A DNA stretch of 64,000 nt from Verrucomicrobiota bacterium. GTDB taxonomy: Bacteria > Verrucomicrobiota > Verrucomicrobiia > Limisphaerales > JANNEF01. Below the pieces are notes generated by a model. That model was not told the DNA's origin and made no database searches. It saw only the letters and a list, made by a program, of their open reading frames with translations. The stretch covers positions 2,650 to 66,649 of the forward strand of contig JANNEF010000121.1 in the NCBI GenBank assembly GCA_031378375.1, given 5' to 3'. Positions 648-58,546 of the stretch are shown here, one piece after another; position 1 is the stretch's first letter; the number at the start of each line of letters is the position of its first letter. The translations under genes and the position numbers were made by a program.

Positions 648-1005
648 CCTTCATTTCGCCCCTTCAGGGCTTGGGATGTTTTTGGGCATCGTTCCCAAGG
701 CGTTGCCTTGGGCTATCGCATTTTGCCGCGTTGCGGCATCGGTCCGGGGCGTTGTGGCATCCGTTGGCCCCAACGGGACTGGCTTTTGCCGCGTTGCAGC
801 ATCCGCCCGCCCCAACGGGGCCGAAGGTGAAAGCCCAGGGCAACGCCCTGGGAAAGGTATCCCACCATATTCCCCAGCCCTGAAAGGGCGGCACCACCTT
901 TGTTGCGCCCTTTCAGGGCTTGGATTGTTTTCATCCATCCATCCCAGGGCGTTGCCCTGGGCTATCTCATTCCTCCCCGTTGGGGCAAATGCCACCGATC
1001 TGGAG
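648..1005. repeat. REP cluster (type A), BIME-like array of short palindromes
   Basis: Units cgccccttcagggc (657-670), cccaaggcgttgccttggg (694-712), gcccagggcaacgccctggg (833-852), cccagggcgttgccctggg (943-961) plus gccgcgttgcggc-type units. All six frames are open and no coding signal is seen. Confidence 0.75.
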
Positions 1006-1013
1006 GTCATCGT

Positions 1014-2580
1014 ATGAGCGCCCAGGCAAACTTCTCCCTGCGCGGGCGCAACCCGGACGTGCTGACGTGCATCGCGAACCTCTCCAACGACGAGGTGTTC
1101 ACCCCGCCGGAGTTTGCGAACCGGATGCTCGACACGCTGGCCGAGGCGTGGGCGGCGAATAACAAGGGCGCAAACCTCTGGGCGGACAAGTCGGTGAAGT
1201 TCCTCGACCCCTGCACGAAATCCGGCGTGTTCCTGCGCGAGATCACCAGCCGGCTGACCCAGGGGCTGGAGCAGGAGATGCCGGACCTGGAGAAGCGCGT
1301 GAATCACATCCTCACGAAGCAGGTGTTTGGCATTGGCATCACGCAAATCACCGGCCTGCTGGCGCGGCGCAGCGTCTATTGCTCCAAGCACGCCCAAGGC
1401 GAACACTCGATTGCCAAAGGCTTCGCCAGCGACGATGGCAACATCTGGTTCCAGCGCCTCAAACACACTTGGGAGGGCGACAAGTGCCAGTATTGCGGCG
1501 CGGGCAAATCCGTTTTCGACCGGGCGACGGGTCTTGAAACCCACGCCTACGCGTTCATTCACACCGACAACATCAAGACTCGGCTCACCAAGATTTTTGG
1601 AGGCAATATGCAATTCGACGTCATCATTGGAAATCCACCGTATCAATTGGCGAGCGACGGCGGCACGCGCGACATTCCCATTTACAACAAGTTTGTTGAG
1701 CAGGCGAAGAAGCTTGAGCCGCGCTACCTCTCAATGGTTATTCCGTCCCGCTGGATGGCGTCAGGTCTTGGCTTGAGCGATTTCCGAAAAGCCATGTTGG
1801 AGGATAGGAACATCAGGAAGCTGATGGACTATGAGCGCATGGACTTGGTGTTTCCGGGCGTGGATTTCGAGGGCGGCATCTGCTATTTCCTTTGGGATCG
1901 AGACAACGCGGGTAAATGCGAAGTAACCACCGTCACCGGCGAGGAGACCATCGGGCCGGCAATGCGCGACCTGAACGAATACGATATTCTCGTGCGCGAT
2001 AGCCGTGGGCTAAACATCCTCAAGAAGGTGCTCGCAGAAGGCGAGCCGTCCATCATTGATATTCTTTCCGCTGACAAGGAATTTGGCTGGACGTCCAACT
2101 TTGATGGATTTCGGGAGGACAAAAAGCCTAGCGATGTCGCGCTGTATTACGGGCGTGCTGGCAAGCGGCTTGTCGGTGGCATTGCCCGTAAAGATGTCAC
2201 GAAGAGTCCACACCTGATAGACAAGTGGAAGGTGATGGTCTCTGCGGCCTACGGCGAACGTGGTGCGCGGCCTGCGATGGTGCTTGGCCCTAGCTTCATT
2301 GCTGAATCACCTTCGGTTTGCACGCAGACCTACTTGTTTTTTTACGTTGGTTCAAAGAAGCACGCTGAAAGTCTGCAAAGCTATCTCAATACGCGCTTTT
2401 TCCGGTTTTTGGTATCGCTGCGAAAAATCACTCAGCACGCGACTCGCGCGACTTACACTTGGATTCCGCAACAGAGTTGGGACCGCCTTTGGACGGATGA
2501 GGCGCTTTACAAGAAATACAAATTGAGCAAGGACGACATCGCCCACATTGAAGCCTGCATCCGTCCGAGGGCCAGCAACG

Positions 2581-2588
<8 letters not shown>
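1014..2588 (+). CDS. N6-adenine DNA methyltransferase (Eco57I-like gamma-class MTase domain)
   Basis: AdoMet motif I-like KFLDPCTKSGVFLREI and catalytic motif IV IIGNPPYQ. ATG at 1014 lies just past the REP array; the ORF-track start at 900 is inside the repeats. The stop overlaps the next gene start (ATGAGTAA, 2581-2588). Confidence 0.8.
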
Positions 2589-5118
<2,530 letters not shown>

Positions 5119-5792: not shown

Positions 5793-5961
5793 GGCGAGTG
5801 CGTTTCCGGTTTTAAGGATAGAGGGTTTCCGTGAGACGGAAACGGGTCAGTCTCGCTGTGATCTTGAGTGGGCAGGCGTAAGGGCCGCGCGGTGTGGACC
5901 AGGCAGCGCGCCAGAGTTTTGCTGGAAGGATTCACAAGCGGCGTCCGATGGACTCCGTCCG

Positions 5962-7205: not shown

Positions 7206-7310
7206 ATGGCCCGCCTTAGCGTTGAATATATGTCAACACTACTTATCGTCTTGATTGTGGTTCTCTTGCTCGGCGGCGGCGGCGGCTACTTCTACTCCCG
7301 GCGCCGGTAA
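7206..7310 (+). CDS. possible tiny membrane peptide (34 aa; or 26 aa from the internal Met)
   Basis: MARLSVEYMSTLLIVLIVVLLLGGGGGYFYSRRR: one hydrophobic helix and a basic tail. No homolog recognised and no clear RBS. Confidence 0.25.
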   Translation: MARLSVEYMSTLLIVLIVVLLLGGGGGYFYSRRR

Positions 7311-7442
7311 GCGGGTGCGGATTCACACGCTGTGCAGCCCAACAAAGCGCGGGCGGACTGCGTCTTGCCGGGCAAGTACAGTGGCGTGATCGTCGTTACG
7401 GAAGCAGAAACAGGTCAGTCGCGCACTCTCGCGACACTCCGG

Positions 7443-7507
7443 CTCACGACGAACTCGAAGAGTTCCTTCTTGGAACTGCGTTGGCGGATGTTTTGCACGG
7501 TCACGCC
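7443..7507 (-). repeat. cassette-associated repeat, copy 1 (partial)
   Basis: ctcacgacgaactcgaagagttccttcttggaactgcgttggcggatgttttgcacggtcacgcc. Hairpin core agttcc-ttctt-ggaact at 7461-7477. Lies 3' of the PIN gene. Confidence 0.7.
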
Positions 7508-7570
7508 TGCCTGCGGCGGGTTCCAAGTTCAAGGTTCCGGGTTTTGAGTTGAAGCCGGCCATTGTTCGCC

Positions 7571-8023
7571 TCAAGACAGCCCCAGGCGCTTCAATGCCTC
7601 GGCGGCGCGAATGATCGGAATACCCTCGAACGATCCGAGCGTGAGCAGATCATTGTCGCCCGTGACGGTCGCGTCAGCCTCCGCCGCCACGGCACAGGCG
7701 AGGACATGGACATCGTCCGGATCGCGCAGTCCGGCGGGTGCGGGAATCGAAATGGTGGGAACGAGTCGGGCCACCGCGCGGACTCGGGTGAACGCAATTT
7801 CCGGGGTGAATTGTTTCAGTGCCAGTCGCGCGGCAAACTTCCTGCGATTCAATACTTCGCGCAACTCGACGAGCAGGAGTTCGCTGAGGAAGAGTCGCAC
7901 CCGGCCATCCACCACCGACAGCAATAATCGACCCGGCTGCCCGCCCCAGAGCAGGCCGGAGACAAGCAGATTGTTATCAATGACCGCCTTCACGCTGCCG
8001 TCGCGCCGCCCGTACCGCGTCAA
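7571..8023 (-). CDS. PIN-domain toxin (TA-system toxin component, PIN family)
   Basis: KAVIDNNLLVSGLL near the N-terminus and TVTGDNDLL..GIPII near the C-terminus, typical of this PIN subfamily. Overlaps the upstream small gene. An alternative GTG start at 7990 is possible. Confidence 0.8.
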   Translation of the reverse strand: MTRYGRRDGSVKAVIDNNLLVSGLLWGGQPGRLLLSVVDGRVRLFLSELLLVELREVLNRRKFAARLALKQFTPEIAFTRVRAVARLVPTISIPAPAGLRDPDDVHVLACAVAAEADATVTGDNDLLTLGSFEGIPIIRAAEALKRLGLS

Positions 8024-8228
8024 CCTCCGTCTGGATTTCTTCCGGCGACATCGGCTCGCCTGGCAACGAGTGCAGGCCTGTGAGCATTTGACCCAGATCC
8101 TTGCGGGCGCGCTCGCGCCGCAATTCCTCGCTCAACAACTCTCCCAAACGACCGGACTCCAGCAGACCGCTGGCTCGCGCTTCATTCACCAGCGCGTCGG
8201 GCAGATCCAGTTGAATCGTGACGCTCAT
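7977..8228 (-). CDS. putative antitoxin partner of the PIN toxin
   Basis: 83-aa ORF immediately upstream of and overlapping the PIN gene (classic TA operon geometry). The fold is not recognisable by eye. Confidence 0.6.
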   Translation of the reverse strand: MSVTIQLDLPDALVNEARASGLLESGRLGELLSEELRRERARKDLGQMLTGLHSLPGEPMSPEEIQTEVDAVRAARRQREGGH

Positions 8229-8296
8229 GCCGTGGGACAGGATGACAGCACCAGCCGCACCGTGTCAAATCGTGAGTCAACTCGGGTCATCCCGAA

Positions 8297-8397
8297 CATT
8301 CGCATATTTCCCGATCACGACGAACTCGAACAGTTCCTTCTTGGAACTGTGTTTGCGGCTGTGCTCCACGGTCACGCCGGTGAAGCCGTGCGGGCGC
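8297..8397 (-). repeat. cassette-associated repeat, copy 2 (full length)
   Basis: cattcgcatatttcccgatcacgacgaactcgaacagttccttcttggaactgtgtttgcgg...gtcacgccggtgaagccgtgcgggcgc. Perfect 7-bp stem cagttcc/ggaactg at 8331-8349. Abuts the stop of the 79-aa gene. Confidence 0.75.
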
Positions 8398-8398
8398 A

Positions 8399-8638
8399 TC
8401 AGTGCGGGCGGGGTGGTTCATCGTTCAGGGCCAAGGCAGATGCTTCCGCGCGTTGGCGTTCTTCCTCGGCCACGAGTTGCCGCAGCTCCCCGGCATTGCG
8501 GACGACGGGACCGGAATGGGGGTGTTCGTCCGACCATTTCCGCAGGTTTTCAAACATGCGGTGAATATCGTAACCCGCTTCGCGCGCCAAGTCGTCCTTG
8601 ATGCGCCAGACTTCCTCAAGAATCGGATTCGCTTTCAT
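8399..8638 (-). CDS. 79-aa conserved small protein (putative antitoxin-like partner of PIN-like gene), copy 1
   Basis: MKANPILEEVWRIKDDLAREAGYDIHRMFENLRKW... is 76/79 identical to the ORF at 11999-12238. The ORF-track extension to 8821 is upstream noise. Confidence 0.6.
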   Translation of the reverse strand: MKANPILEEVWRIKDDLAREAGYDIHRMFENLRKWSDEHPHSGPVVRNAGELRQLVAEEERQRAEASALALNDEPPRPH

Positions 8639-8642
8639 GGAC

Positions 8643-8770
8643 TCATTCTCCCGCAAGTTCGATGGGGGTGCAAATCTCCGGCAGCGCCAGCTCGCGCGCG
8701 GCCATGAACGCGCGGAGTTTCTTCTGCAAGTGCGGATTGGCCAGGTGCCGCGTCGACGTCCGGCCACCCT
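8643..8770 (-). pseudogene. C-terminal remnant of a PIN-like toxin gene
   Basis: ..RTSTRHLANPHLQKKLRAFMAARELALPEICTPIELAGE aligns with the C-terminus of the 12216-12650 product (..WNCRHLANAQILRRIEAEVLRAGLRMPRVCTPLELMGD). No N-terminal PIN portion is present upstream. Confidence 0.5.
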
Positions 8771-8974
8771 CTTCCAGTTCCACTCCCTTGTCGGCACCCG
8801 CCTGCGGGCATCCTCTCCCATCCGGTGGGTGAAGGGCAGGCGCGGAGAAGGAATGCTCCGCAGTTTGCAGCACGTTGACGGTTTAACACTTCATGGTGGA
8901 AGGCATCCCCCTCTTTTGCGGCTTCTGCGTCTTTTTGTGGCAATGCAAACCGCGCGTTGTTTTCCGCCGCCAGA

Positions 8975-9046
8975 CTGTAGCGGCGCTCTGTGAGCGTCGG
9001 CGTTGTCTCGGTTTTTGGTTCGGCGGTCACAGACCGCCGCTACAGG
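8975..9046. repeat. 72-bp palindromic REP pair (type B), left flank of RAYT-2
   Basis: ctgtagcggcgctctgtgagcg(t/c)cgg-N20-cggcggtcacagaccgccgctacagg. Near-identical to 9755-9826. Confidence 0.85.
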
Positions 9047-9073
9047 ATTGCGTGCCCACAGAGCGCCGCTACC

Positions 9074-9760
9074 ATGTTGCGCGTGAACCCGGAAGTTCGT
9101 CCGCCCAGACTCAAACGCCTGGAACGGCTTTTCGTCAATCATCCGCTCTACTTCGTCACCGCGAACACGGAAGACCGAAAACCCATCCTCGCCAACGCCG
9201 GGGTCCATGAAGGATTCCGGAAGTTTTGCGAGACGGGCCTGACGCGGGGCGTGTTCGTTGGCAAATACGTCTTGATGCCGGACCATCTGCATTTGTTTGT
9301 GACGTTTGGTGAGGAATACGAAGCGGCGCTCATAGCGCGTCGCCGGCCACAGTCCGGCGCTACAGCCGGCGACCCTGTAGCGGCGGTCTGCGACCGCCGA
9401 ATCCAACAAGGTGACGCTGCAAAAAAGGCAGTCACAGACAGCCGCTACAACCGTCAGTCGCAGACGGACGCTACAGCAGGCTTTGTAGCGGCGGTCTGCG
9501 ACCGCCGTCTCTCCCCACTTTCGGAATGGATGAAAAGCTTCAAGAACTCGCTCTCGAAAACCTTGCGCGAAATGAATGTTCCCGCCCCGCACTGGCAGAA
9601 GGGCTTCTTCGATCATGTGATGCGTTCCAAGGAATCGTATTCCGAGAAGTGGCTTTACGTGGCAGAAAATCCCGTGCGCAAACATCTGGCCGCGCGTCCT
9701 GAAGATTGGCCGTATCAGGGAGAGATTTTCGCCCTGCAAGCCGGAGGCCACACGCTGTAG
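9074..9760 (+). CDS. REP-associated tyrosine transposase (RAYT), copy 2, carrying an in-frame internal REP cluster
   Basis: HUH motif MPDHLHLFV; C-terminal HWQKGFFDHVMRS and YVAENPVR typical of RAYT/TnpA_REP. ATG at 9074. A ~57-codon insert made of REP units sits between the HUH and Tyr halves. The TAG stop lies inside the right flanking REP. Confidence 0.75.
   Translation: MLRVNPEVRPPRLKRLERLFVNHPLYFVTANTEDRKPILANAGVHEGFRKFCETGLTRGVFVGKYVLMPDHLHLFVTFGEEYEAALIARRRPQSGATAGDPVAAVCDRRIQQGDAAKKAVTDSRYNRQSQTDATAGFVAAVCDRRLSPLSEWMKSFKNSLSKTLREMNVPAPHWQKGFFDHVMRSKESYSEKWLYVAENPVRKHLAARPEDWPYQGEIFALQAGGHTL
9337..9507. repeat. five type-B REP units nested inside the RAYT-2 coding sequence
   Basis: Units at about 9337-9365, 9375-9399, 9427-9450, 9451-9476 and 9483-9507 (consensus (c/t)tgtagcggcggtctgcgaccgccg and its complement). 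By my boundaries the total is 171 bp, a multiple of 3. Confidence 0.7.
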
Positions 9761-9826
9761 CGGCGCTCTGTGAGCGCCGGCGTTGTCTCGGTTTTTGGTT
9801 CGGCGGTCACAGACCGCCGCTACAGG
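9755..9826. repeat. 72-bp palindromic REP pair (type B), right flank of RAYT-2
   Basis: Direct repeat of 8975-9046, with one mismatch seen by eye. Confidence 0.85.
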
Positions 9827-10035
9827 AGGCGTGTGGATTGATGGGTTTCCTTCGCGGCAAAAATTTTTTCACTTTTTTTGCTCACGACGCTAAACAACGC
9901 CGGAGAACTGCCGATAGGCTTGGTAGAGACGAGTTCGGCTCGGTGAGCCGGACGGAGTCGGAATCGAGTGGTCAACAAAACTGTAATGAATCAGTCAGTC
10001 GTCGGTGCCATTAAAAAACTAAACACGCAACAGCC

Positions 10036-10887
10036 ATGAATATTCGCCAAATCAACAAGTTCCGTTCTTACGTCGGTGTGGAATCCGCCTGCAAACGTTA
10101 CAAACCGGTCTGGAATGCCGCCGCCGTGCCGGAGTTCGGCCTCGCGGTGACGGATCTTTCCGAGCGGATCGTCATCATCCGCGGGCTGGGGCAGCGGCAG
10201 GAGGATCCCACCACCGGCATCGCGGCCATGAAGCTGCATTGCCGGAAACAGGTATGCACCACCGGGGCGATCATCGCCGGCGCCGTCCATTCGTGGGCGA
10301 CCAAGACCAATCAACTCGACATCGCGCAGAAGGCGGACTGGTCGTACAGCGATCTGTTCGCCGGGCGCGAGACGGCCAGTGCGGACCGTTGCCAGAACGT
10401 TCACAAGCTGGCGAAGGAGAACCTTTCGTCGCTCGCCAAGTTCGGCGTCACGGCGGACAAGCTGGAGGAATTTCAGGAGCAGGTTGACGCGTATCTCGGT
10501 TGCATCGGCAAGCCGCGCGAGGCCATCACGACCACCAGGACGGTGACGCAACAGTTGGCGACGGAGTTCGCCGCCGTGGACAAGCTGCTGGAGAAGACGC
10601 TGGACAAGCTGGTGCTCCAGTTCCAGGAGAGCGCACCGGACTTCTTCAACGATTACCAGAACGCGCGCTTCATCGTGGATCAAAACGGCGCGCGGGAAAC
10701 GGACGAAGCGTCGGCGGACACGGCAAAGCCCGCAGCGTCGGCCCAGCCAGCGCAACCGGCACAGTCTCAACCCACCCAATCAGCGCAGTCAGCCCAGTCA
10801 CCGCAGCCAGAGACGCCCGCCCAGCCGGAGCAACCCGTGGCGCAACCGGAGCAGCCGTCCGCGCAATCGCAGCCGAAAGCGGCGTGA
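10036..10887 (+). CDS. hypothetical protein with Gln/Pro/Ala-rich low-complexity tail
   Basis: 283-aa ORF with ATG start after an AT-rich leader, a helical-looking body and the tail AQPAQPAQSQPTQSAQSAQSPQPETPAQPEQP. No motif recognised. Confidence 0.5.
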   Translation: MNIRQINKFRSYVGVESACKRYKPVWNAAAVPEFGLAVTDLSERIVIIRGLGQRQEDPTTGIAAMKLHCRKQVCTTGAIIAGAVHSWATKTNQLDIAQKADWSYSDLFAGRETASADRCQNVHKLAKENLSSLAKFGVTADKLEEFQEQVDAYLGCIGKPREAITTTRTVTQQLATEFAAVDKLLEKTLDKLVLQFQESAPDFFNDYQNARFIVDQNGARETDEASADTAKPAASAQPAQPAQSQPTQSAQSAQSPQPETPAQPEQPVAQPEQPSAQSQPKAA

Positions 10888-10934
10888 GCCGATGACGGGG
10901 TGGGTGGATGAGAGTCAGAACGGGGTCAGTCCCG

Positions 10935-11037
10935 CACTTTCGCATATTTCCCGCTCACGACGAACTCGTACAGTTACTTCTTGGAACTGCGTTGGCGGAT
11001 GTTTTCCACAGTCACGCCGGTGCAGCCGTGCTGGCGC
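10935..11037 (-). repeat. cassette-associated repeat, copy 3
   Basis: cactttcgcatatttcccgctcacgacgaactcgtacagttacttcttggaactgcgttggcggatgttttccacagtcacgccggtgcagccgtgctggcgc. Lies 3' of vapC. Confidence 0.75.
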
Positions 11038-11076
11038 AGGATGGCGGCGTAAAGCCGTTCGGTGCGGACTTCCGGG

Positions 11077-11481
11077 CTAAAGCTGTTCGTCGAACGGGTT
11101 GAAAATGTTCACTCCCAAGCCGGCAAAATCGCCGATGTTTCGGGTGGCGACTGTCCAACCGTGCGCGCGAGCCGTGGCCGCGATGAGCGAGTCCCGCGCA
11201 AAAACCGTGCGGCCTTGGGCGAGGGCTTCGGCGGTCATTTCGCCCCAGGCCAGCGCTTCCAACTCGTCAAAGGGCGCGACCGGCAGCGTCAAGACATCTT
11301 CCAGGAACTGCCGCAGTTGGGGTGTGGGATTGCTCTGGACGCCCTGCTTGATTTCCCCCAGCACAATCGCCGGCAGGCGGGCATCGGCGGCCGGCACCTT
11401 GCGCAAGAACGACATGACTTTGGGCGAGGGGCGCTGTTTGGTGCGCTCACTCAGCACATTGGTATCCAGCAGGTAAATCAC
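11077..11481 (-). CDS. vapC: VapC-type PIN-domain ribonuclease toxin
   Basis: MIYLLDTNVLSE (first acidic PIN residue), later ..ARDSLIAATARAHGWTVATRNIGDF. 134 aa. ATGA overlap with the upstream antitoxin gene. Confidence 0.85.
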   Translation of the reverse strand: MIYLLDTNVLSERTKQRPSPKVMSFLRKVPAADARLPAIVLGEIKQGVQSNPTPQLRQFLEDVLTLPVAPFDELEALAWGEMTAEALAQGRTVFARDSLIAATARAHGWTVATRNIGDFAGLGVNIFNPFDEQL

Positions 11482-11723
11482 AGCTTCACCCGATGCACAC
11501 GCTCTCTTTTGAACTCGGCAAACTCCACGTCCGCGCCGGCGGACCCGGCGAGCGCGTCCGCCACAGACTTGCCCTTGAGTTTTCTGGGCGTCGTCCGCTT
11601 GGGCCGTTCAACGCGGGTCAAGAGCCACTGGTTTTGCCCCTGCTCATCCAACAGCAGAACATCTCCCTTTTGGATCGGGAGCGGCAGCACGACCCGGCGC
11701 TTGTCATCAGGCGTCAATTTCAT
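11478..11723 (-). CDS. antitoxin of VapC (AbrB/SpoVT-like N-terminus likely)
   Basis: MKLTPDDKRRVVLPLPIQKGDVLLL.. resembles the swapped-hairpin SpoVT/AbrB DNA-binding motif. Start chosen at Met28 of the track ORF (11804 is the alternative). 4-nt overlap with vapC. Confidence 0.6.
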   Translation of the reverse strand: MKLTPDDKRRVVLPLPIQKGDVLLLDEQGQNQWLLTRVERPKRTTPRKLKGKSVADALAGSAGADVEFAEFKRERVHRVKL

Positions 11724-11833
11724 GGTGGGACAGTCCCACACCTCGACACTGCCGGCAAATCCCTTCTTTGGCAACGGAAACGGGGTCAGAAACGGGTCAC
11801 CCATTAGCGTGAGCTATCCTGCACATTCGCATA

Positions 11834-11997
11834 TTTCCCGCTCACGACGAACGGCTGTGAACTGACGAGTGACAGGTGACGTGTGATGAGACGCCGGCCA
11901 CCTCACCCTCGGTCCCTCTCCCCGCGCGGAGAGGGAGGAACACGAACTGCGTTTGCGGATGTTTTCCACAGTCACGCCGGTGAAGCCGTGCGGGCGC
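11834..11997 (-). repeat. cassette-associated repeat, copy 4, split by an ~81-bp hairpin insertion
   Basis: The halves 11834-11862 and 11944-11997 match copies 2 and 3. The intervening 11863-11943 contains ccctctccccgcgcggagaggg (a REP-like hairpin) and replaces the repeat's own hairpin core. Confidence 0.7.
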
Positions 11998-11998
11998 C

Positions 11999-12238
11999 TC
12001 AGTGCGGGCGGGGCGGTTCATCGTTCAGGGCCAAGGCAGATGCTTCCGCGCGTTGGCGTTCCTCCTCGGCCACGAGTTGTCGCAGCTCCTCAGCATTGCG
12101 GATGACGGGACCGGAATGGGGGTGTTCGGCCGACCATTTCCGCAGGTTTTCGAACATGCGGTGAATATCGTAACCTGCCTCGCGCGCCAGATCGTCCTTG
12201 ATGCGCCAGACTTCCTCAAGAATCGGATTCGCTTTCAT
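11999..12238 (-). CDS. 79-aa conserved small protein, copy 2 (partner of PIN-like gene)
   Basis: 76/79 aa identical to 8399-8638. Its start overlaps the 3' end of the PIN-like gene. Confidence 0.6.
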   Translation of the reverse strand: MKANPILEEVWRIKDDLAREAGYDIHRMFENLRKWSAEHPHSGPVIRNAEELRQLVAEEERQRAEASALALNDEPPRPH

Positions 12239-12650
12239 CAGCAGAGTCTCCCATCAATTCCAGCGGGGTGCAAACCCTGGGCATCCGCAACCCGGCACGA
12301 AGCACTTCCGCCTCGATCCGCCGCAGGATTTGCGCGTTGGCCAGGTGGCGGCAATTCCAAGTCAGCAAGTAGTCGGCCTCCGCGATGACGGCGGCGGCCA
12401 GGTGAATCGCGTCGGAACGGGCGCGGGCCGGCAGCGCGCCCGAAGCCAGAAAACGAATCGTCAATTGTTCGGCCTCCAACGCGGACGGGATCAAGGTCAA
12501 TCCGGCCAGCACGACGAGCCGGCGTCGGGCCTGCTCCGCATCGCCACGGGCGGCTTCGGCCAGCGTTTCGGCGGAGGTGACGCAGTGAAATCCGATCCGG
12601 CGGCGCTGCCACCAATCGCGCGTGGCTTGTTGCAATCCCGCAGTCACCAC
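12216..12650 (-). CDS. PIN-like domain protein (putative toxin); 5' end unresolved
   Basis: DAIHLAAAVIAEADYLLTWNCRHLAN is typical of a PIN-like family paired with a small downstream gene. The same frame stays open upstream (..FIETTIVSYLVADPSRD..) back to a TAA with no ATG/GTG/TTG. The nearby ATG at ~12710 is out of frame. Confidence 0.55.
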   Translation of the reverse strand: MVTAGLQQATRDWWQRRRIGFHCVTSAETLAEAARGDAEQARRRLVVLAGLTLIPSALEAEQLTIRFLASGALPARARSDAIHLAAAVIAEADYLLTWNCRHLANAQILRRIEAEVLRAGLRMPRVCTPLELMGDSADESESDS

Positions 12651-13084
12651 GTCCCGGCTGGGATCAGCGACGAGGTAGCTGACAATCGTCGTCTCGATAA
12701 AACGGTTTCCATGTCGGTGCCAGGGCCGACTTTAGTTGCCCGATTCCTCTGGTCAATGGCTCAGAAATGGGCTGATCGGGCCGTTCAGAGATCCACTGAC
12801 ACCGTCGGGGAAATTGCTGGTTGAAGATGGAGAGTTGATGGACGGAAGGGGACACCTCACCCCCCTTCAATTTCCGATTTCAGATTGCCGATTTGCGATT
12901 TGAAGCCGGCCAGAGCGGGCACCTCGCCCGTCCGGCGGTGAGAAAACGAACACCTCACCCATGATTGCTGGCATCAAGTCCCAACTTTCGCACGGAAAAT
13001 TCTTCTGGCGAGCTAAGGGGCTGGGGTGAAATGAGTTGATCGATCGGGCTGGACTTGCGGGAAAAAGTTTTCCATCCTCCGGCC

Positions 13085-14909
13085 ATGTCGAAACCGTCCC
13101 GAACCACTTCCGCCACCGTCTCCGGCGCGCTGGCGGCCATCCAAGTTCAACTGCTCCCGACGGCCAAGGCCCGCGCCCGCCGTCTGCTGGCCAAACATCA
13201 TTATCTGGGCGATGTCCGCGCGGTGGGCGAACAACTCTTTTACGCGCTCACCGCAGCCGACGGCGACTGGCTCGGGGTGCTCGTCTTCTGCGCCGCCTCG
13301 CGCCGCTTGCGCGCCCGCGACCAATGGATCGGCTGGAGCGAGGAGCAACGCCGCCGCCGTCTCCCGCTGGTCGTCAACAACTGCCGCTTCCTGCTCCTGC
13401 CGCACAAGACCTTGCCCAATCTCGGCTCGCGCGCCCTGCGGCTGACGCTCGACCGCCTGTCCGCCGACTGGCAGGCGCGTTACGGCCATCCCGTCGTGCT
13501 GGTCGAAACGTTCGTCGATCCCGAGCAGTTCTCCGGCACCGTCTACACCGCCAACGGCTGGCAGGAGCTGGGCACCACCGACGGCTTTGGCCGCGTGCGC
13601 CGTGACTTCTACGTGCAGCATAAGAAACCCAAGCGCCTCTTCGCCCGGGAACTGTGCCGCAACGCCCGGCGCAGCCTGGCCGCCGACCAACTCCGGCCCG
13701 CGCTGGCTGCGGTCGAAGCCCGCACCCGGCCGCGCAGCCCGCAAAGCCCCGCGCAGATCCGCTCCCTGGTCGAACACCTCAAGACCCTGCCCGACTATCG
13801 CGCGCGCATCGGCATCTATCCGCTGTGGAGCCTGGTCGCCATGGGCGTGCTGGCCCATCTGTGCGGCGCGCCGCGCGGCCCCAAGGAGTGGTCTCTCTTC
13901 GCCAAGGGTCTGAGCCGGGCGCAGCGCAGCGCCCTGGGCGTGCGCCGGCAGGCCGACGGTTATCCGGCGCCCGGACCGTCCACCTTCTGGCGGCTCCTGG
14001 CGCGCATCGACGGCGACGCTTTGGAAAAGATTTTCCTGCAGGTGCAGGAACAACTGCGCGGCCCCGCCCCGCCCGACGAACTCATCGTGCTGGACGGCAA
14101 AGAGCCCCGGCACGGCGGCGGCCACGCCGTGCTCACCGCCGTCACCGTGCCCGGCCAGCATTACCTGGGCAGCGCGCTGGTGGACCAGAAGACCAACGAG
14201 ATCCCCGTCGCGCGCGAACTCTTCAAGAAGCTCGACCTGGACGGGCGCAAAGTCAGCCTCGACGCCCTCCACACCCAGGACCAGACCGCGCGCGAACTGG
14301 TGCTCGCACACGGCGCTGACTTTCTCCTGACCGTCAAAGACAACCAGCCCACGCTGCGGGCGAACATTGAAAAACTCGTTCCCGCCCCGCCGGCGGATTT
14401 TTCCCCCTCGAGTGGCCACGGCCACGCTGGCGGGCAAACGCGAGTTTAACAAAGGCCAGCCCGAAGTGCGGGTGCTGCGCTCCTGTGCCAGCAGCGCCGA
14501 GTCGATGGACTTCCCCGGCGTCCAACAAGTCGCCTTGCTGCGCCGCCACCTGCGCCAGCATTCGCCGGAAACCGTCGCGCTGGTGACGAGCCTGCCGCCC
14601 GAAGAATTGAACGCCGCGCAGTGGCTGGAGTTCAACCGTGCGGCCTGGGGCATCGCAAGCGGCCTGCACCAGCGCCTGGACGTCTCGCACCGCGACGACC
14701 AGTGCCGCGTGCGCCTGCCGCGCTCGATGCGAGTCATCGGGATGTTCCGCCGCTTGAGCAACAGCCTGTTCATGCACTGGCGCAGCCGGCAAAAGAAACC
14801 CCGGCACCAAACCACCACCGACTTCTTCACCGCCATGAACGCCGAACATCATCGCTATGCCCTTCGCTGCCTAAAGGCCCGCCAGCCAAGCTTCTGCTCC
14901 GCTTCGTGA
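13085..14909 (+). mobile_element. ISAs1-family transposase with N-terminal DUF4338 (DruA-like) domain, interrupted by a frameshift
   Basis: N-terminus LLAKHHYLG..WIGWSEEQRRRRL..VVNNCRFLLLP..VETFVDPEQFSGTVYTANGW matches DUF4338. The middle (VLDGKEPRHGGG..LHTQ..FLLTVKDNQP) is a DDE ISAs1-type transposase. Frame 1 stops at 14449, and the C-terminal part (..DFPGVQQVALLRRH..) continues in another frame from 14367 to 14909. Confidence 0.75.
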
Positions 14910-15917: not shown

Positions 15918-17117
15918 TCAAATCAGGTGCCCCAGCTTTTCCCGCTTGGTCTTGAGGTATTTCTGGTTGTGCCGGTTGGGGGCCACGCGGATGGGCACCT
16001 GCTCGACGATTTCCAGGCCGTAGCCATCCAGCCCCACGAGCTTTTTGGGATTGTTCGTCAGCAGCCGGATGGTTTTCAACCCGAGGTCCACCAGGATTTG
16101 CGCGCCCAGCCCGTATTCCCGCAAATCCATTTTGAAGCCGAGCTTCAAGTTCGCCTCCACCGTGTCGTAGCCGCGCTCCTGTAATTTGTAGGCCTTGATC
16201 TTCGGCGCCAGCCCGATGCCGCGCCCTTCCTGCCGCATGTAAACGATGACGCCCCGACCTTCCGCCGCCACCTGCCGCATCGCCTGCTGCAGTTGATGCC
16301 CGCAATCGCAGCGGCGCGAGCCGAACACGTCGCCCGTCAGGCACTCGCTATGCACGCGCACCAGCACGCCCTGCTTGTTCGCCACGTCGCCCTTCACCAG
16401 CGCCAGATGATGCTGGCCGTCGGTGTTGGACCGGTACAGATACAAGTCGAAGTCACCGTAATCGGTTGGCAGCTTCACCACTTCGACGCGCTCGACCAAC
16501 TTCTCCCGCGTGCGACGAAACTTGATCAAGTCTTCGATGGAACAAATTTTCAGCCGGTGTTTGCGCGCGAACTTGAGCAAGTCGGGCAGCCGCGCCATCG
16601 TGCCGTCGTCGTTCAACACCTCGCAGATGACACCCATGGGCCGGCACCCGGCGAGCTTCGCCAGGTCCACCGCCGCCTCCGTGTGGCCCGCGCGCTGCAA
16701 CACCCCGCCCGCCCGCGCCCGCAGCGGGAAGATGTGCCCCGGCTGCACGAGGCATTCCGGGAGCGCCGTCGGGTCCGCCATCACTTGAATCGTCCGCGCA
16801 CGATCCGCCGCGCTGATGCCGGTGGTGACGCCCCGGGCGGCGTCCACGCTCACCTGGAAATCCGTTTTGAACGTCTCACGGTTCTGCGTGACCATCTGCT
16901 CGATGCCCAACTGCTTGAGCCGCTCGGAAGTCGTCGGCACACAGATCAACCCACGCCCATGCTTGGCCATGAAGTTGATGGCCGCCGGCGTTGTGTGTTC
17001 GGCGGCGAGGATCAAGTCGCCTTCGTTCTCGCGGTCGGCGTCGTCCACCACGATCACCATTTTGCCTTTCCGCAAATCGGCAATCACGGCGGCGATGGAA
17101 TCAAACGGGTCTTTCAT
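15918..17117 (-). CDS. ribBA: bifunctional 3,4-dihydroxy-2-butanone-4-phosphate synthase / GTP cyclohydrolase II
   Basis: DHBPS half ([14 protein letters not shown]), GCH-II half ([21 protein letters not shown]..). Start taken at MKDPFDSI (17117), not the track start 17216. Confidence 0.9.
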
Positions 17118-18316: not shown

Positions 18317-18590
18317 TTCACTGATGCGGCGCTGGGGCCTCGCCAGCAAAGTCGTGCGGGCATCTCGTCCACACAAGGCACGCCGGGCGTGATGCCCGCC
18401 GAACGAGCACCGGCGTGGGTGCTTCCCCCCTTCCTGTTTCCGATCAAGCTCTAAAGTATTTCCCGCCAAATACCAATAAACCCACTGGACACCGCGCTCG
18501 GGACGGGCCTGTGGTTGGCAGCGGCGCTTTCGATTCTTCCGCCATCCGACCGGCAGCTTGCCTGTTGCTCGACGGGGTCCCGCGAGAAAC

Positions 18591-20012
18591 ATGCTGCACA
18601 TTCAATCAGAGGAATCGTTGACGGACGGCCAGCCGAACTTTTGTGTCCACGATCTAATCCGCATCCAGGCACGCCGCCGCCCCGATGCCCCGGCCATCGC
18701 CGGGCCGGGCCGCGCGCCGCTGGCCTATGGCCGCCTGTGCGTGCAAGTAGACGACGTGGTGCGCAAACTCAACGCGATGGGTGTGGGCCGCAACGAGCGC
18801 GTCGCCCTCGCGCTGCCGAATGGACCGGAGCTGGCCGTGGCCATGCTCGGAGTGGCGGCGGCGGCCACCAGCGCGCCGCTGGACCCGGCTTCGCGCGCCG
18901 AAGAGTTTGAAGCTCACCTGACTGCAATCCGAGCGAGGGCTCTGATCGTTCAAGCCGGTTTTGATTCACCCGCCCGCGCCATCGCTCACGCGCGCGGAAT
19001 CACCATCGTGGAACTATCGCCTATGCTGGGCGCGGAGGCGGGCCTCTTTGCACTGCGCGGCAACGACAGCGCCCGGCCGGCACGCCATGGCTTCGCGGAG
19101 CCGGGCGACGCGGCGGTGATACTACCGACATCCAACCCGGTCGCCCGATCGGGCCTGGTGCCGTTGACGCACATGAATCTATGCGCCTCGGCGTTCAACA
19201 TCGGCGCCACGTTGCGGCTGCTGGAACGGGATCGGTGTCTGAATCTGATGCCACTGTTCGAGGTTCACGGCCTGGTCAGCGCGCTGGTTTCCTCGCTGGT
19301 CGCCGGAGCCGGGGTGTTCTGTGCACCGGAGTTCAGCGTGGTCCAGTTTTACGACTGGTTGCAGGAGTTCCGGCCGACGTGGTTCACCGCCGCGCCCGCG
19401 ACGCACCAGATCATCCTCGCGGGCGCCCATACTCGTCGCGACATCCTTGCCCATTGCCCGCTGCGGTTCGTGCGCTCATTGGGCAGGGTATTGCCGGCGG
19501 AACTGGCGGGAGATTTGGAAAGAGTTTTCAAAGCGCCGGTGATCGAAGGTTACGGCCTGACCGAGGCGGCGGATCAAATCACCTCCAACCTCCTGCCGCC
19601 GGGCGTTCGCAAGCCCGGCTCCTCGGGAAAAGCAGCGGGGCCGGAGGTCGCCATCATGGATCGCGCCGGCCATGTGCTCGCGCGCGGACGAACCGGTGAG
19701 ATCGTCATACGCGGCCCCAACGTCGCGCTTGGTCCCGAAGGAGCCGCGGCCACCACCGCTGGCGCAGCGGCCAGCGGCTGGTTACGCACGGGCGACTTGG
19801 GGTATCTCGACCAGGACGGCTTCCTGTTCATTACCCAACATCAAGCGGACCAATCGCACCCGCATCGCGAGAATCCAGCCTCGCCGGCTGGGAAACCGGC
19901 GGCGGCGGCACCGCACTGGGCGGATGGCACCGGATTGCATATCGCGGACGAACCGCCAATCAACCGGCTGGAAACACGGAACCCCAGCGGCTCGGATGAT
20001 GACCAAAGTTGA
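18591..20012 (+). CDS. adenylate-forming enzyme family protein (acyl/aryl-AMP ligase-like), degenerate
   Basis: A5 EGYGLTEA and A7 LRTGDLGYLDQDGFLFIT are present. The P-loop/A3 is replaced at equal length (ILPTSNPVARSGLVPLTH against the usual YTSGTTGxPKG). The A8-A10 C-terminal subdomain is replaced by a low-complexity tail. The stop overlaps the NRPS start. Confidence 0.65.
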   Translation: MLHIQSEESLTDGQPNFCVHDLIRIQARRRPDAPAIAGPGRAPLAYGRLCVQVDDVVRKLNAMGVGRNERVALALPNGPELAVAMLGVAAAATSAPLDPASRAEEFEAHLTAIRARALIVQAGFDSPARAIAHARGITIVELSPMLGAEAGLFALRGNDSARPARHGFAEPGDAAVILPTSNPVARSGLVPLTHMNLCASAFNIGATLRLLERDRCLNLMPLFEVHGLVSALVSSLVAGAGVFCAPEFSVVQFYDWLQEFRPTWFTAAPATHQIILAGAHTRRDILAHCPLRFVRSLGRVLPAELAGDLERVFKAPVIEGYGLTEAADQITSNLLPPGVRKPGSSGKAAGPEVAIMDRAGHVLARGRTGEIVIRGPNVALGPEGAAATTAGAAASGWLRTGDLGYLDQDGFLFITQHQADQSHPHRENPASPAGKPAAAAPHWADGTGLHIADEPPINRLETRNPSGSDDDQS

Positions 20013-58193: not shown

Positions 58194-58546
58194 TGGTGGA
58201 GGCGGGGGGAGTTGAACCCCCGTCCCTGACAAACAAACCAGCCGCGACTACATGCTTAGTCCGGAGAAGGTTTTCTGCCGTGCGATAGCGTCCGAACTCG
58301 AGACGCACAGCCTAGTCCGCATGAAGTTTTCTCGGTCGCCGGCGCGCAGTCTCCGCCGTCAACCATGCCTGCTGTTGCGTTCAGCCGGCGTAGCAGGTGT
58401 CCACCGGTGAACGTCGAGGCAATTAAGCCGCGAGAGCTAGTTCTGTATTAGCTTTTGATTTTTGGTTCGATGATTAACGAGGCCAACGAACCGTCCTCGG
58501 CATGCCGCCTCTGGCGCATCTCTCAGGTCGAAACCAGTACGCCCCC
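58194..58546 (-). ncRNA. ssrA: transfer-messenger RNA (tmRNA)
   Basis: 5' GGGGGCGTACTGGTTTCGAC pairs with the 3' ..CGCCTCCACCA, including the G3:U alanine identity pair. T-arm GGGGGTTCAACTCCCCC. Internal tag frame GCT AAT ACA GAA CTA GCT CTC GCG GCT TAA (58452-58423) encodes ANTELALAA. Confidence 0.9.

What the first reader, a model, noticed from the sequence alone, without database searches (positions are those of the whole stretch)
7443..12650. Four minus-strand toxin-antitoxin-type cassettes, each followed at its 3' end by the same ~65-105 bp repeat
Reading the minus strand, the order is as follows. (1) PIN-like gene plus 79-aa gene, then repeat copy 4. (2) AbrB-like antitoxin plus VapC, then copy 3. 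(3) PIN remnant plus 79-aa gene, then copy 2. (4) antitoxin plus PIN toxin, then copy 1. The repeat (..cattcgcatatttcccg(a/c)tcacgacgaactcg(a/t)acagtt(c/a)cttcttggaactg(c/t)g..gtcacgccggtg(a/c)agccgtgc) carries a short hairpin, cagttcc-ttctt-ggaactg. It always lies immediately downstream of a cassette stop codon. One conserved element after each small accessory operon resembles a chromosomal integron cassette array (ORF plus attC). No integrase is visible in the window, and I could not see the extended R''/L''-L'/R' symmetry by eye. Other readings are a shared terminator or processing site, a recombination scar that propagates TA modules, or a relic coding segment; one plus-strand frame (..HDEL..LLGTA.ADV.H.HAG..) stays open in all copies.
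Basis: partly seen in the sequence, partly recalled or inferred. Interest (0 to 1): 0.65.

Follow-up and report, generated by a model that had tools for sequence, protein, structure and literature searches.

The report
Methylase-gene remnants between toxin–antitoxin cassettes
The repeat after each toxin–antitoxin cassette is a decayed copy of the last 30–50 codons of a restriction–modification methyltransferase gene, not an integron site, and it marks the joints of a cassette array whose content differs between related bacteria.

Summary
Four copies of a 95–160 nt repeat lie on the minus strand, each after a toxin–antitoxin (TA) cassette. I also found a fifth 24-nt stump at 5837–5860.

The repeat is not an attC, a terminator or a known RNA. 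It is the decayed 3' end (last 31–48 codons, stop codon and about 16 nt) of a ~410-aa DNA methyltransferase gene. In intact loci that gene follows a conserved ~280-aa partner gene, which I infer to be a restriction enzyme. The window holds no intact copy. The hairpin is simply the codons for S-S-K-K-E-L.

All copies share the same right edge, but their left edges differ (−83, −53, −53, −32, −9 nt). A related metagenomic array (L176) has remnant pieces at every cassette joint and different cassettes. A third contig (L174) has two remnants around an inverted cassette.

My best reading is that self-contained TA cassettes inserted repeatedly at the end of a former methylase gene, each time duplicating part of the target. 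Recombination between the repeats later reshuffled the array. A site-specific, integron-like mechanism that uses the fixed right edge is not excluded. No integrase was found in the window.

The parts
5837..5860 (-). w0: stump of the repeat (last codons, stop codon and the 3' flank motif GACTGACCCGTTTCCG), lying after the metallophosphoesterase gene
   Evidence: (D10)
7405..7510 (-). w1: methyltransferase 3'-end remnant. Its left edge is 32 nt before the S codon of the SKKELFEF motif. It reads ..AGVTVQNIRQRSSKKELFEFVVSRSVARVRD*
7571..8228 (-). Cassette 4: an 83-aa putative antitoxin (7977-8228) plus a PIN_3 toxin (7571-8023). The unit is bounded at 8274 and 7570 by homology to L176.
8276..8402 (-). 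w2: remnant with its left edge at -53. It is still an intact 40-aa ORF (8277-8399) whose ATG overlaps the TGA of the 79-aa gene.
   Evidence: (P0001)
8399..8760 (-). Cassette 3: a 79-aa gene (8399-8638) plus a C-terminal remnant of the PIN-like gene (about 8643-8760). It is a duplicate of cassette 1 together with its remnant (93% identity over 300 nt).
   Evidence: (D1)
8968..9830 (+). REP-associated tyrosine transposase (RAYT, 8990-9760) with its flanking REP hairpins, inserted in the array upstream of cassette 3
   Evidence: (D4-D9, I1-I25)
10916..11075 (-). w3: the longest remnant, with its left edge at -83. It reads EVRTERLYAAILRQHGCTGVTVENIRQRSSKK*LYEFVVSGKYAKVRD* and carries an in-frame stop codon.
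11077..11786 (-). Cassette 2: an unclassified putative antitoxin (11478-11723) plus VapC (11077-11481), with a 62-nt leader that contains the palindrome GTGGGACTGTCCCAC
11787..12002 (-). w4: remnant with its left edge at -53, split by a ~90-nt insertion (11853-11942). The insertion carries the palindrome CCCTCTCCGCGCGGGGAGAGGG.
11999..12766 (-). Cassette 1: a self-contained unit made of a promoter-like site (TTGACC..TAAAGT, 12756-12729), the PIN-like gene and the 79-aa gene. It is 85-89% identical to L175 and L176. The L175 homology runs from 12766 to the 79-aa stop codon (11999); the L176 homology starts at 12724 and runs past the stop into the first 23 nt of the remnant (to 11975).
13055..14449 (+). 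Truncated ISAs1-family transposase with a DruA-like N-terminal domain, at the upstream end of the array. It is a possible cause of the loss of the array's upstream flank.

Best explanation
**What the repeat is.** The repeat is a non-functional remnant of the 3' end of a methyltransferase gene. It covers the last 31-48 codons, the stop codon and about 16 nt of flank. The parent gene encodes a ~410-aa N6/N4-type DNA methyltransferase with the motifs DPFxGTGTT and TSPPYPNRMSY. In intact loci it follows a conserved ~280-aa partner gene, which I infer to be a type II restriction enzyme.

**How the array formed (inferred).** Compact, self-expressing TA cassettes inserted repeatedly at the end of this gene. 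Each cassette runs from its own promoter to the stop codon of its last gene. Each insertion joined the left end of the cassette at one fixed point about 16 nt after the methylase stop codon. Each insertion also duplicated a variable stretch of the gene end. This is 'insertion with long target duplication', described previously for restriction-modification modules. The result is the order: remnant, cassette, remnant, cassette, and so on.

**What happened afterwards (inferred).** The 95-160 nt direct repeats then served as substrates for homologous recombination. That recombination duplicated one unit (PIN-like gene, 79-aa gene and remnant) and changed the cassette content between related strains. 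The body of the methylase gene has since been lost from this locus.

**Shown versus inferred.**
- Shown: the identity of the repeat, its edges, the cassette limits and the polymorphism between genomes.
- Inferred: the insertion mechanism and the role of homologous recombination.
For: **Identity of the repeat.**
- A profile built from the translated copies found 263 proteins in 1.84 billion. The full-length hits (400-430 aa) match at their extreme C-terminus.
- These full-length proteins carry N6_N4_Mtase signatures and resemble DpnA-type methylases in the PDB.
- tblastn with full-length members hits only the four copies in the window, with E from 2e-8 to 2e-4 for w1-w3 and only 0.17-2.5 for the split copy w4. 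It matches only their last ~40-55 residues.
- In about 108 intact loci, a ~280-aa gene directly precedes the methylase on the same strand.

**The copies are decaying.**
- Variable sites fall 6/8/9 over codon positions 1/2/3.
- w3 has an in-frame stop codon, and w4 has lost its start codon and is split by an insertion.

**Edges of the repeat.**
- Left edges are at -83, -53, -53, -32 and -9 nt. The right edge is shared.
- The remnant in L084 is 92.5% identical to w3, and the similarity stops exactly at both edges of the remnant.

**Cassettes are discrete units that can occur without the remnant.**
- Cassette 1 is 85% identical in L175 from 12766 to the stop codon, with unrelated DNA after it.
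- Cassette 4 is bounded at 8274 and 7570 by its homology to L176.

**The array is polymorphic.**
- L176 has remnant pieces at all five cassette joints (each reached by 0-2 of 300 shuffles). It carries a DUF6883/DUF4926 cassette where the window has VapBC and cassette 3.
- L174 has two remnants around a cassette on the opposite strand.

**Signs of illegitimate joining.**
- There is a 6-nt overlap, TTCTGA, at the joint between the right edge of the remnant and cassette 1.
- The spacing between the right edge and cassette 4 varies: 2-6 nt in the window against 24 nt in L176.

**Precedent.** Long, variable target duplications that span a gene's stop codon, with no mobility gene in the insert, are described for restriction-modification modules (PMC2853133).
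Against: - No intact methylase gene sits at the upstream end of the array, as simple serial insertion would predict. The array ends in a truncated IS.
- No strain-level 'empty site' is available for comparison.
- None of about 128 loci with a full-length methylase has a second copy of the gene end on the sequence held around it (up to 10 kb each side; many contigs are much shorter). Ongoing insertion into intact genes was therefore not observed.
- No full-length gene with this lineage's ..SGKYAxVRD* tail was found.
- The common right edge could equally be the crossover point of a site-specific recombinase.
- Several independent remnants share a left edge near the codons for V-P-T-E. Random breakage does not predict this.
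- Two joints have unexplained 9-12 nt direct repeats beside them.
Confidence: 0.5

Rival explanations
1. The array is a site-specific cassette array that is integron-like in logic but not an integron. In this reading each mobile unit is a cassette plus its own piece of the methylase remnant. An unknown recombinase, encoded elsewhere in the genome, recombines the units at a fixed core about 16 nt after the old stop codon (TGACCCGTTTCTGA). It would excise circles and re-insert them at any other copy.
For: - The right edge is constant in w0-w4, L084 and L176, while the left edge differs from cassette to cassette. This is the same topology as attC-bounded cassettes.
- Cassette content differs between related arrays while the repeats are kept.
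- Remnant copies of one lineage are 85-96% identical across at least three sources and flank at least six different cassettes.
- The 6-nt overlap TTCTGA at one joint could be a crossover core.
Against: - No recombinase was found in the 64 kb.
- No dyad symmetry or binding-site-like inverted repeat occurs at the right edge.
- The distance from the right edge to cassette 4 differs between genomes, 2-6 nt against 24 nt.
- Cassette 1 occurs without any remnant in L175 and with thiC remnants in L010.
- L174 lacks the motif after the stop codon.
Confidence: 0.22
2. The array arose from one ancient accident followed by amplification. A single TA cassette landed in, or a deletion fused it to, the end of a decaying methylase gene. 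Unequal crossing-over between copies then amplified the cassette-plus-remnant unit in tandem. Individual cassettes were later replaced by homologous exchange or by small deletions. In this reading no repeated insertion took place.
For: - A clear tandem-type duplicate exists: PIN-like gene, 79-aa gene and remnant at 93% identity (D1).
- The remnant copies form one tight clade of 84-96% identity.
- In intact loci such as L010, TA cassettes already sit just upstream of the two-gene methylase module, so a deletion alone could create a cassette-remnant fusion.
- Restriction-modification units flanked by long repeats are reported to amplify (PMC2853133).
Against: - It requires at least four separate replacements by unrelated cassettes.
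- Each replacement must end exactly at a cassette's stop codon and create a new left edge in the remnant (-83, -53, -32, -9).
- It does not explain why the right edge of a remnant abuts each cassette's promoter in two genomes.
Confidence: 0.18
3. The repeat is kept because it has a function. It could be a 3' UTR stabiliser or processing site, a terminator, a promoter for the next cassette, or a small protein (the 40-aa ORF in w2 is translationally coupled to the 79-aa gene).
For: - w2 is an intact ORF whose ATG overlaps the upstream TGA.
- Gene callers found similar small ORFs starting at the conserved Met/Val in other contigs.
- Copies persist directly after stop codons.
Against: - There is no bias towards synonymous change.
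- w3 has a stop codon, w4 is split and w1 lacks a start codon.
- There is no terminator-like site and no fold better than shuffles.
- There is no Rfam match.
- The hairpin is a by-product of codon choice and is not conserved at the DNA level in the family.
- In L174 the cassette is on the opposite strand from the remnants.
Confidence: 0.05
4. The array is a true chromosomal integron, with the repeat acting as attC.
For: - Four co-oriented small cassettes are each followed by a similar ~100-nt element.
- TA cassettes are typical cargo of chromosomal integrons (my own knowledge, not tested here).
Against: - There are no R'/R'' core sites.
- There is no attC-like folded structure.
- The element is homologous to a protein-coding gene end.
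- There is no intI in the window.
Confidence: 0.02

Closest known systems
Insertion with long target duplication of restriction-modification modules (Nobusato et al. 2000; Furuta et al. 2010, PMC2853133)
   Same: - Direct repeats of tens to hundreds of bp flank a small addiction-type module that carries no mobility gene.
- The repeat spans the stop codon of a target gene.
- The length of the repeat varies.
- Repeat-flanked units can amplify.
   Different: - The inserts here are TA cassettes, not restriction-modification genes.
- At least five serial copies form an array.
- All copies share one fixed right edge.
- The target gene itself, a methylase, is no longer intact.
- No empty-site genome is available to prove that insertion occurred.
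Chromosomal integron cassette arrays (intI, attI, attC)
   Same: - The array consists of small, mostly co-oriented cassettes, many of them TA modules, each followed by a related ~100-nt repeat.
- Cassette content varies between related genomes.
   Different: - There are no attC core sites or folded structure, and no intI in the window.
- The repeat is a remnant of a gene.
- Each cassette has its own promoter.
- A cassette can be inverted relative to the repeats (L174).
Tandem genomic islands bounded by att repeats derived from the 3' end of the target gene (tRNA, tmRNA or protein-coding targets)
   Same: - The repeats are copies of the 3' end of a gene.
- They have a common end and bound successive accessory segments.
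   Different: - The units are only 0.7-0.8 kb and have no integrase.
- The intact target gene is missing.
- The left edges of the repeats differ from unit to unit.
Type II DNA methyltransferases of the N6_N4_Mtase (PF01555) kind, paired with a restriction gene
   Same: The repeat aligns to the last 31-48 residues of this family (..VPTE..IRKRSSKKELFEFVVS..).
   Different: - Only the C-terminal tail survives.
- There is no SAM-binding or SPPY motif, so the remnant is not a functional member of the family.

Membership tests
Integron cassette array | An intI tyrosine recombinase next to the array | tested here: not met
   Pfam and NCBIfam scans of about 53 ORFs across the 64 kb gave no Phage_integrase hit. 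The rest of the genome could not be searched.
Integron cassette array | attC: an imperfect palindrome (R''-L''...L'-R') that folds as a single strand | tested here: not met
   RNA and DNA folds of both strands of three copies gave z-scores from about +0.9 to -2.8 and structures that differ between copies. The only shared helix is the 6-8 bp central hairpin.
Integron cassette array | Core sites RYYYAAC and GTTRRRY at the ends of the element | tested here: not met
   Neither pattern occurs on either strand of w0-w4.
Integron cassette array | Co-oriented cassettes, each followed by the repeat, with content that varies between strains | tested here: met
   In the window, 4 of 4 cassettes fit this pattern. 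L176 carries different cassettes at the same joints. In L174, however, the cassette is inverted.
Insertion with long target duplication | Direct repeats longer than 30 bp flank an insert that carries no mobility gene | tested here: met
   Repeats of 95-160 nt at 84-96% identity flank 0.7-0.8 kb cassettes made only of TA genes.
Insertion with long target duplication | The repeat corresponds to a single-copy target in a genome that lacks the insert (an empty site) | tested here: inconclusive
   About 128 loci carry the intact methylase gene with a single copy of its end. None of them is a close relative that shows the empty site of this array.
Insertion with long target duplication | The upstream repeat copy remains part of the intact target gene | tested here: not met
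   The window has no full-length methylase, and the array ends at a truncated IS.
N6_N4 DNA methyltransferase (parent gene of the repeat) | Sequence homology to the family | tested here: met
   The profile search placed full-length hits at their C-terminus, with E down to 1e-28. tblastn gave E from 2e-8 to 2e-4 for w1-w3 (0.17-2.5 for the split w4). DNA identity to the intact gene in L004 is 75-80% over 64-113 nt.
N6_N4 DNA methyltransferase (parent gene of the repeat) | Catalytic and SAM-binding motifs are present | tested here: not met
   Only the last 31-48 codons are present, and no N-terminal part occurs anywhere in the window.
Type II toxin-antitoxin cassettes | A recognisable toxin domain next to a small upstream partner gene | tested here: met
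   - The PIN_3 / TIGR00305 toxin scored E = 5e-16 and 2e-18, and VapC scored E = 5e-8 and 4e-14.
- The 144-aa protein gives only a weak hit (E = 0.003).
- No antitoxin family was confirmed, apart from a weak VapB15 hit for the 83-aa protein.
Tandem att-bounded integrative elements | An integrase gene in or beside the units | tested here: not met
   No integrase was found in the window.

The most novel reading that the evidence does not exclude
Some Verrucomicrobia-like bacteria may maintain a previously undescribed kind of cassette array for addiction and defence modules. In such an array, the 3' end of a host gene has been co-opted as the recurrent recombination site, with a fixed crossover point just after the old stop codon. 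Here the host gene is a restriction-modification methylase. In another genome it is thiC, and possibly a third gene ending ..RFYRVLETC*. The array would work without integron machinery, using either an unknown recombinase or a dedicated break-and-copy route.
Probability: 0.2. Interest if true: 0.75.

Novelty: new variant of a known kind. Interest (0 to 1): 0.45.

Why it matters
**A practical caution.** A repeat after each small operon can look like an integron site and still be a remnant of a gene. Translating both strands and searching with a profile settles the question.

**A possible extension of a known process.** If the insertion model is correct, 'insertion with long target duplication' extends from restriction-modification modules to toxin–antitoxin cassettes. 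It also shows that the process can build whole arrays. That gives a concrete route by which addiction and defence islands grow in little-studied phyla without integrases or transposases.

**A testable feature.** The shared right edge, and the parallel arrays built on the ends of other genes, point to a defined break or crossover site. This could be tested experimentally.

Tried and rejected
**Known RNA family.** Rfam scans at the gathering threshold and at permissive E-values found nothing in the copies.

**Structured RNA or DNA element.** The folds are not consistently better than shuffles.

**Terminator.** No terminator-like site falls in any copy.

**Functional coding segment.** I first thought the differences between copies were mainly synonymous. 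A proper count gave 6/8/9 over the three codon positions, which is neutral decay.

**Hairpin as a recombination core.** The hairpin is not conserved at the DNA level among about 90 family members and only reflects the codons for S-S-K-K-E-L.

**Intact methylase in the window, or a second gene-end copy near intact genes elsewhere.** Neither was found.

**Phage origin.** There was no relative in the viral contigs.

**Pfam or NCBIfam name for the fragment alone.** There was none.

**Source record.** P0001, the 40-aa ORF of w2, is in the protein collection, but its contig could not be retrieved.

**A sixth copy upstream of cassette 1 (12767-12830).** The support is only weak. An alignment score of 25 was reached by 14 of 300 shuffles, and part of the motif match belongs to the cassette's own end.

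**The repeat between cassettes in L175.** This turned out to be a REP-like palindrome, not a gene remnant.

Full report

The repeat finder recovered four direct copies. A MAFFT alignment of the minus-strand sequences gave a ~110-nt common core. The consensus reads GCGCCCGCACGGCTTCACCGGCGTGACCGTGGAAAACATCCGCCAACGCAGTTCCAAGAAGGAACTGTTCGAGTTCGTCGTGAGCGGGAAATATGCGAAAGTGCGGGACT.

The copies, in plus-strand coordinates, are:
- w1: 7405-7510
- w2: 8276-8402
- w3: 10916-11075
- w4: 11787-12002

In w4, a ~90-nt insertion carrying the palindrome CCCTCTCCGCGCGGGGAGAGGG replaces the central hairpin. Core 27-mers and 49-mers had no matches in shuffled sequence, and the window holds no other full copy. A fifth, 24-nt stump (w0, 5837-5860) keeps only the last codons, the stop codon and a 3' motif.

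Cassettes 2 and 4 contain genuine PIN/VapC toxins. The 144-aa 'PIN-like' protein gives only a weak hit. None of the small partner genes has a significant family match.

**What the repeat is**

Translating the minus strand gives ..HGFTGVTVENIRQRSSKKELFEFVVSGKYAKVRD*.

A search with the aligned peptides found small ORFs in metagenomes. The longer ones extend N-terminally to ..YIVGNSKFYDVMVPTE... A profile of these sequences, searched against 1.84 billion representative proteins, found 263 hits. Every full-length hit (400-430 aa) matches at its extreme C-terminus.

These proteins have N6_N4_Mtase signatures and the motifs DPFxGTGTT and TSPPYPNRMSY. Their nearest solved relatives are DpnA-type adenine methylases.

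tblastn with full-length members hits only the four copies in the window, and only with their last ~40-55 residues. The window therefore holds no intact gene.

In essentially all loci with an intact gene, a conserved ~280-aa gene sits directly upstream on the same strand (examples). I read this pair as a type II restriction-modification system. That reading is an inference, because the partner has no Pfam or NCBIfam match.

**The copies are decaying DNA, not a maintained element**

- Variable sites are spread 6/8/9 over codon positions 1/2/3.
- w3 has an in-frame stop codon, w4 has lost its start codon and is split by the insertion, and w1 has no start codon.
- The hairpin CAGTTCC-AAGAA-GGAACTG is just the codons for S-S-K-K-E-L. 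In about 90 family members the peptide is invariant, but the DNA palindrome is not conserved.
- There is no Rfam match.
- There is no terminator-like site.
- Folds of either strand, as RNA or as DNA, are not consistently better than shuffles and share no element-spanning structure.
- Neither attC core pattern occurs in any copy.
- No tyrosine recombinase appears among about 53 ORFs scanned.

The integron reading therefore fails on every feature I could test.

**Anatomy of the edges**

I measured positions from the S codon of the SKKELFEF motif. The left edges are at:
- −83 nt in w3
- −53 nt in w2 and w4
- −32 nt in w1
- about −9 nt in w0

All copies end at the same place, about 16 nt past the stop codon, in the motif GACTGACCCGTTTCTG.

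In contig L084 from another metagenome, a remnant 92.5% identical to w3 follows a different TA pair (Phd-like plus a split PIN). The similarity stops exactly at both edges of the remnant.

**The cassettes are discrete units**

- Cassette 1 is 85% identical to a segment of an NCBI MAG contig (L175). The similarity runs from 12766, a few bases upstream of a TTGACC..TAAAGT promoter-like site, to the stop codon of the 79-aa gene. Unrelated DNA follows in L175.
- Cassette 4 is bounded in the same way, at 8274 and 7570, by its homology to L176.
- The cassettes can therefore occur without the remnant. The remnant is the target, not part of the cassette.

**Comparison with related arrays**

L176 (ENA, 3.9 kb) is an orthologous array. 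It reads, in order:
1. the right-edge motif;
2. cassette 1 (89% identical to the window);
3. the first 23 nt of the remnant;
4. an insertion;
5. the remnant's right half;
6. a DUF6883/DUF4926 cassette;
7. the remnant's tail plus the right edge;
8. a cassette 4 homologue;
9. another remnant piece.

Each of the five remnant pieces was reached by only 0-2 of 300 shuffles. Where the window has VapBC, the 283-aa gene, the RAYT gene and cassette 3, L176 has a different cassette.

L174 (JGI) has two remnants, both with the −53 left edge, around a DUF4926/DUF6883 pair on the opposite strand.

Other remnants of the same gene end follow:
- a MazF-like gene, upstream of a SIR2-HerA system (L085);
- VapBC plus an ORF6N gene, next to a convergent gene pair with AAA and UvrD-helicase domains that resembles Gabija (my reading, not tested) (L086);
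- an MNT-HEPN pair (L082).

In L010, which carries an intact partner-plus-methylase pair, relatives of the 79-aa gene are followed by two remnants of the 3' end of thiC.

**How it most likely works**

The pattern is a constant right edge that abuts each cassette's promoter, and a cassette-specific left edge that abuts each cassette's stop codon. Two processes would produce it:
- serial insertion at one point, each time copying a variable length of the upstream target;
- site-specific recombination at a fixed core.

I favour the first, with about 0.5 confidence, for these reasons:
- No recombinase was found, and there is no symmetry at the right edge.
- The spacing between the right edge and cassette 4 differs between genomes, 2-6 nt against 24 nt.
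- One joint shows a 6-nt microhomology, TTCTGA.
- Cassette orientation is not fixed.
- The phenomenon has a published precedent. Restriction-modification modules are found inserted with long, variable target duplications that often span a gene's stop codon, and with no mobility gene in the insert (PMC2853133).

The 93%-identical duplicate of the unit made of the PIN-like gene, the 79-aa gene and a remnant (D1), together with the differences in content between arrays, fits later unequal or reciprocal homologous recombination between the repeats. This step is inferred.

**What does not fit**

- No intact methylase sits at the array's upstream end. A truncated ISAs1-type element lies there instead.
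- No intact gene elsewhere has a displaced second copy of its end on the sequence held around it (up to 10 kb each side).
- Several remnants from different sub-lineages share a left edge at the V-P-T-E codons.
- In L001, a neighbouring 150-nt piece of the gene is inverted at about that point.
- Two joints have significant 9-12 nt direct repeats beside them.

These points keep a site-specific mechanism alive, at about 0.2.

**Verdict**

The finding is real and is now largely explained. The repeats are gene remnants that mark the joints of a TA cassette array. The array is not an integron.

The array architecture is a new variant of known target-duplication or att-scar structures. The features that make it so are the fixed right edge, the polymorphic content and the parallel arrays built on the ends of other genes. 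It is moderately interesting, and the mechanism remains unproven.

Noticed in passing
window 8968-9830: A REP-associated tyrosine transposase (RAYT, 8990-9760, NCBIfam E = 5e-24) lies among at least ten REP-type hairpins (..GTAGCGGCGGTCTGCGACCGCCG..). It is inserted in the array where the PIN-like gene of cassette 3 is truncated.
   Followed up: partly
window 13055-14449: An ISAs1-family transposase has a DruA-like (PF14236) N-terminal domain. It is truncated after about position 182 of the 314-position ISAs1 model. It marks the upstream end of the array, next to the housekeeping genes ribH and ribBA.
   Followed up: partly
window 11999-12003/8397-8402 and 11060-11090: Short direct repeats sit beside two cassette/remnant joints. 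CGCCCGCAC occurs twice, 5 nt apart, at the end of the 79-aa gene. CGAAC(A/G)GCTTTA occurs twice, 17 nt apart, at the end of VapC (0 of 500 shuffles). Their meaning is unknown.
   Followed up: partly
L010 2826-2984 and 3946-4041: In a Verrucomicrobiota MAG, two relatives of the 79-aa gene are each followed by a remnant of the 3' end of thiC (..FCSMKITEDVRKYAAEQG..ELYAKA*). This array parallels the one in the window and sits just upstream of an intact partner-plus-methylase pair.
   Followed up: partly
L176 301-520, 1378-1575, 2519-2701, 3531-3726; window 12864-12965 and 7521-7561: A ~200-nt unit is repeated four times (92-93% identity) between cassettes in L176. It reads ..FLFMDTHASHAPRRFYRVLETC* and so looks like the 3' end of yet another gene. 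The window contains only its AAATCG-rich 5' part.
   Followed up: partly
window 11853-11942; L084 about 700-800; L174 50-130 and 940-1000; L176 several sites: A small palindromic element (CCCTCTCC..GGGAGAGGG followed by GGGTGAGG) keeps turning up inside or beside the remnants. In w4 and in one L176 remnant it is inserted at almost the same position, after CGCAG.
   Followed up: no
L001 7474-7745: A remnant of the methylase end (residues ~384-413) lies next to a 150-nt piece of the same gene (residues ~325-375) in inverted orientation. The breakpoint is near the V-P-T-E codons, where several other remnants also begin.
   Followed up: partly
window 7230-7310 (+): A small ORF encodes a 26-aa hydrophobic peptide, MSTLLIVLIVVLLLGGGGGYFYSRRR. 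It lies between w1 and the metallophosphoesterase gene.
   Followed up: no
window 900-5118 (+): An Eco57I-type methylase (562 aa) is followed by an 856-aa protein with T5orf172 and ResIII helicase domains. This is a separate restriction-like system, unrelated to the remnant family, at the other end of the island.
   Followed up: no
window 16911-17014 (+): An Rfam hit to Vibrio RNA AS9 scores 53.2 bits against a gathering score of 50. It lies antisense within the ribBA gene and is probably a by-product of conserved coding sequence.
   Followed up: no
window 58194-58546 (-): A tmRNA gene with the tag ANTELALAA. No integrase or island was detected beside it.
   Followed up: partly
window 18558-24093 (+): Non-ribosomal peptide synthetase genes (AMP-binding, condensation, PP-binding and thioesterase domains) lie next to the riboflavin genes.
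   Followed up: no
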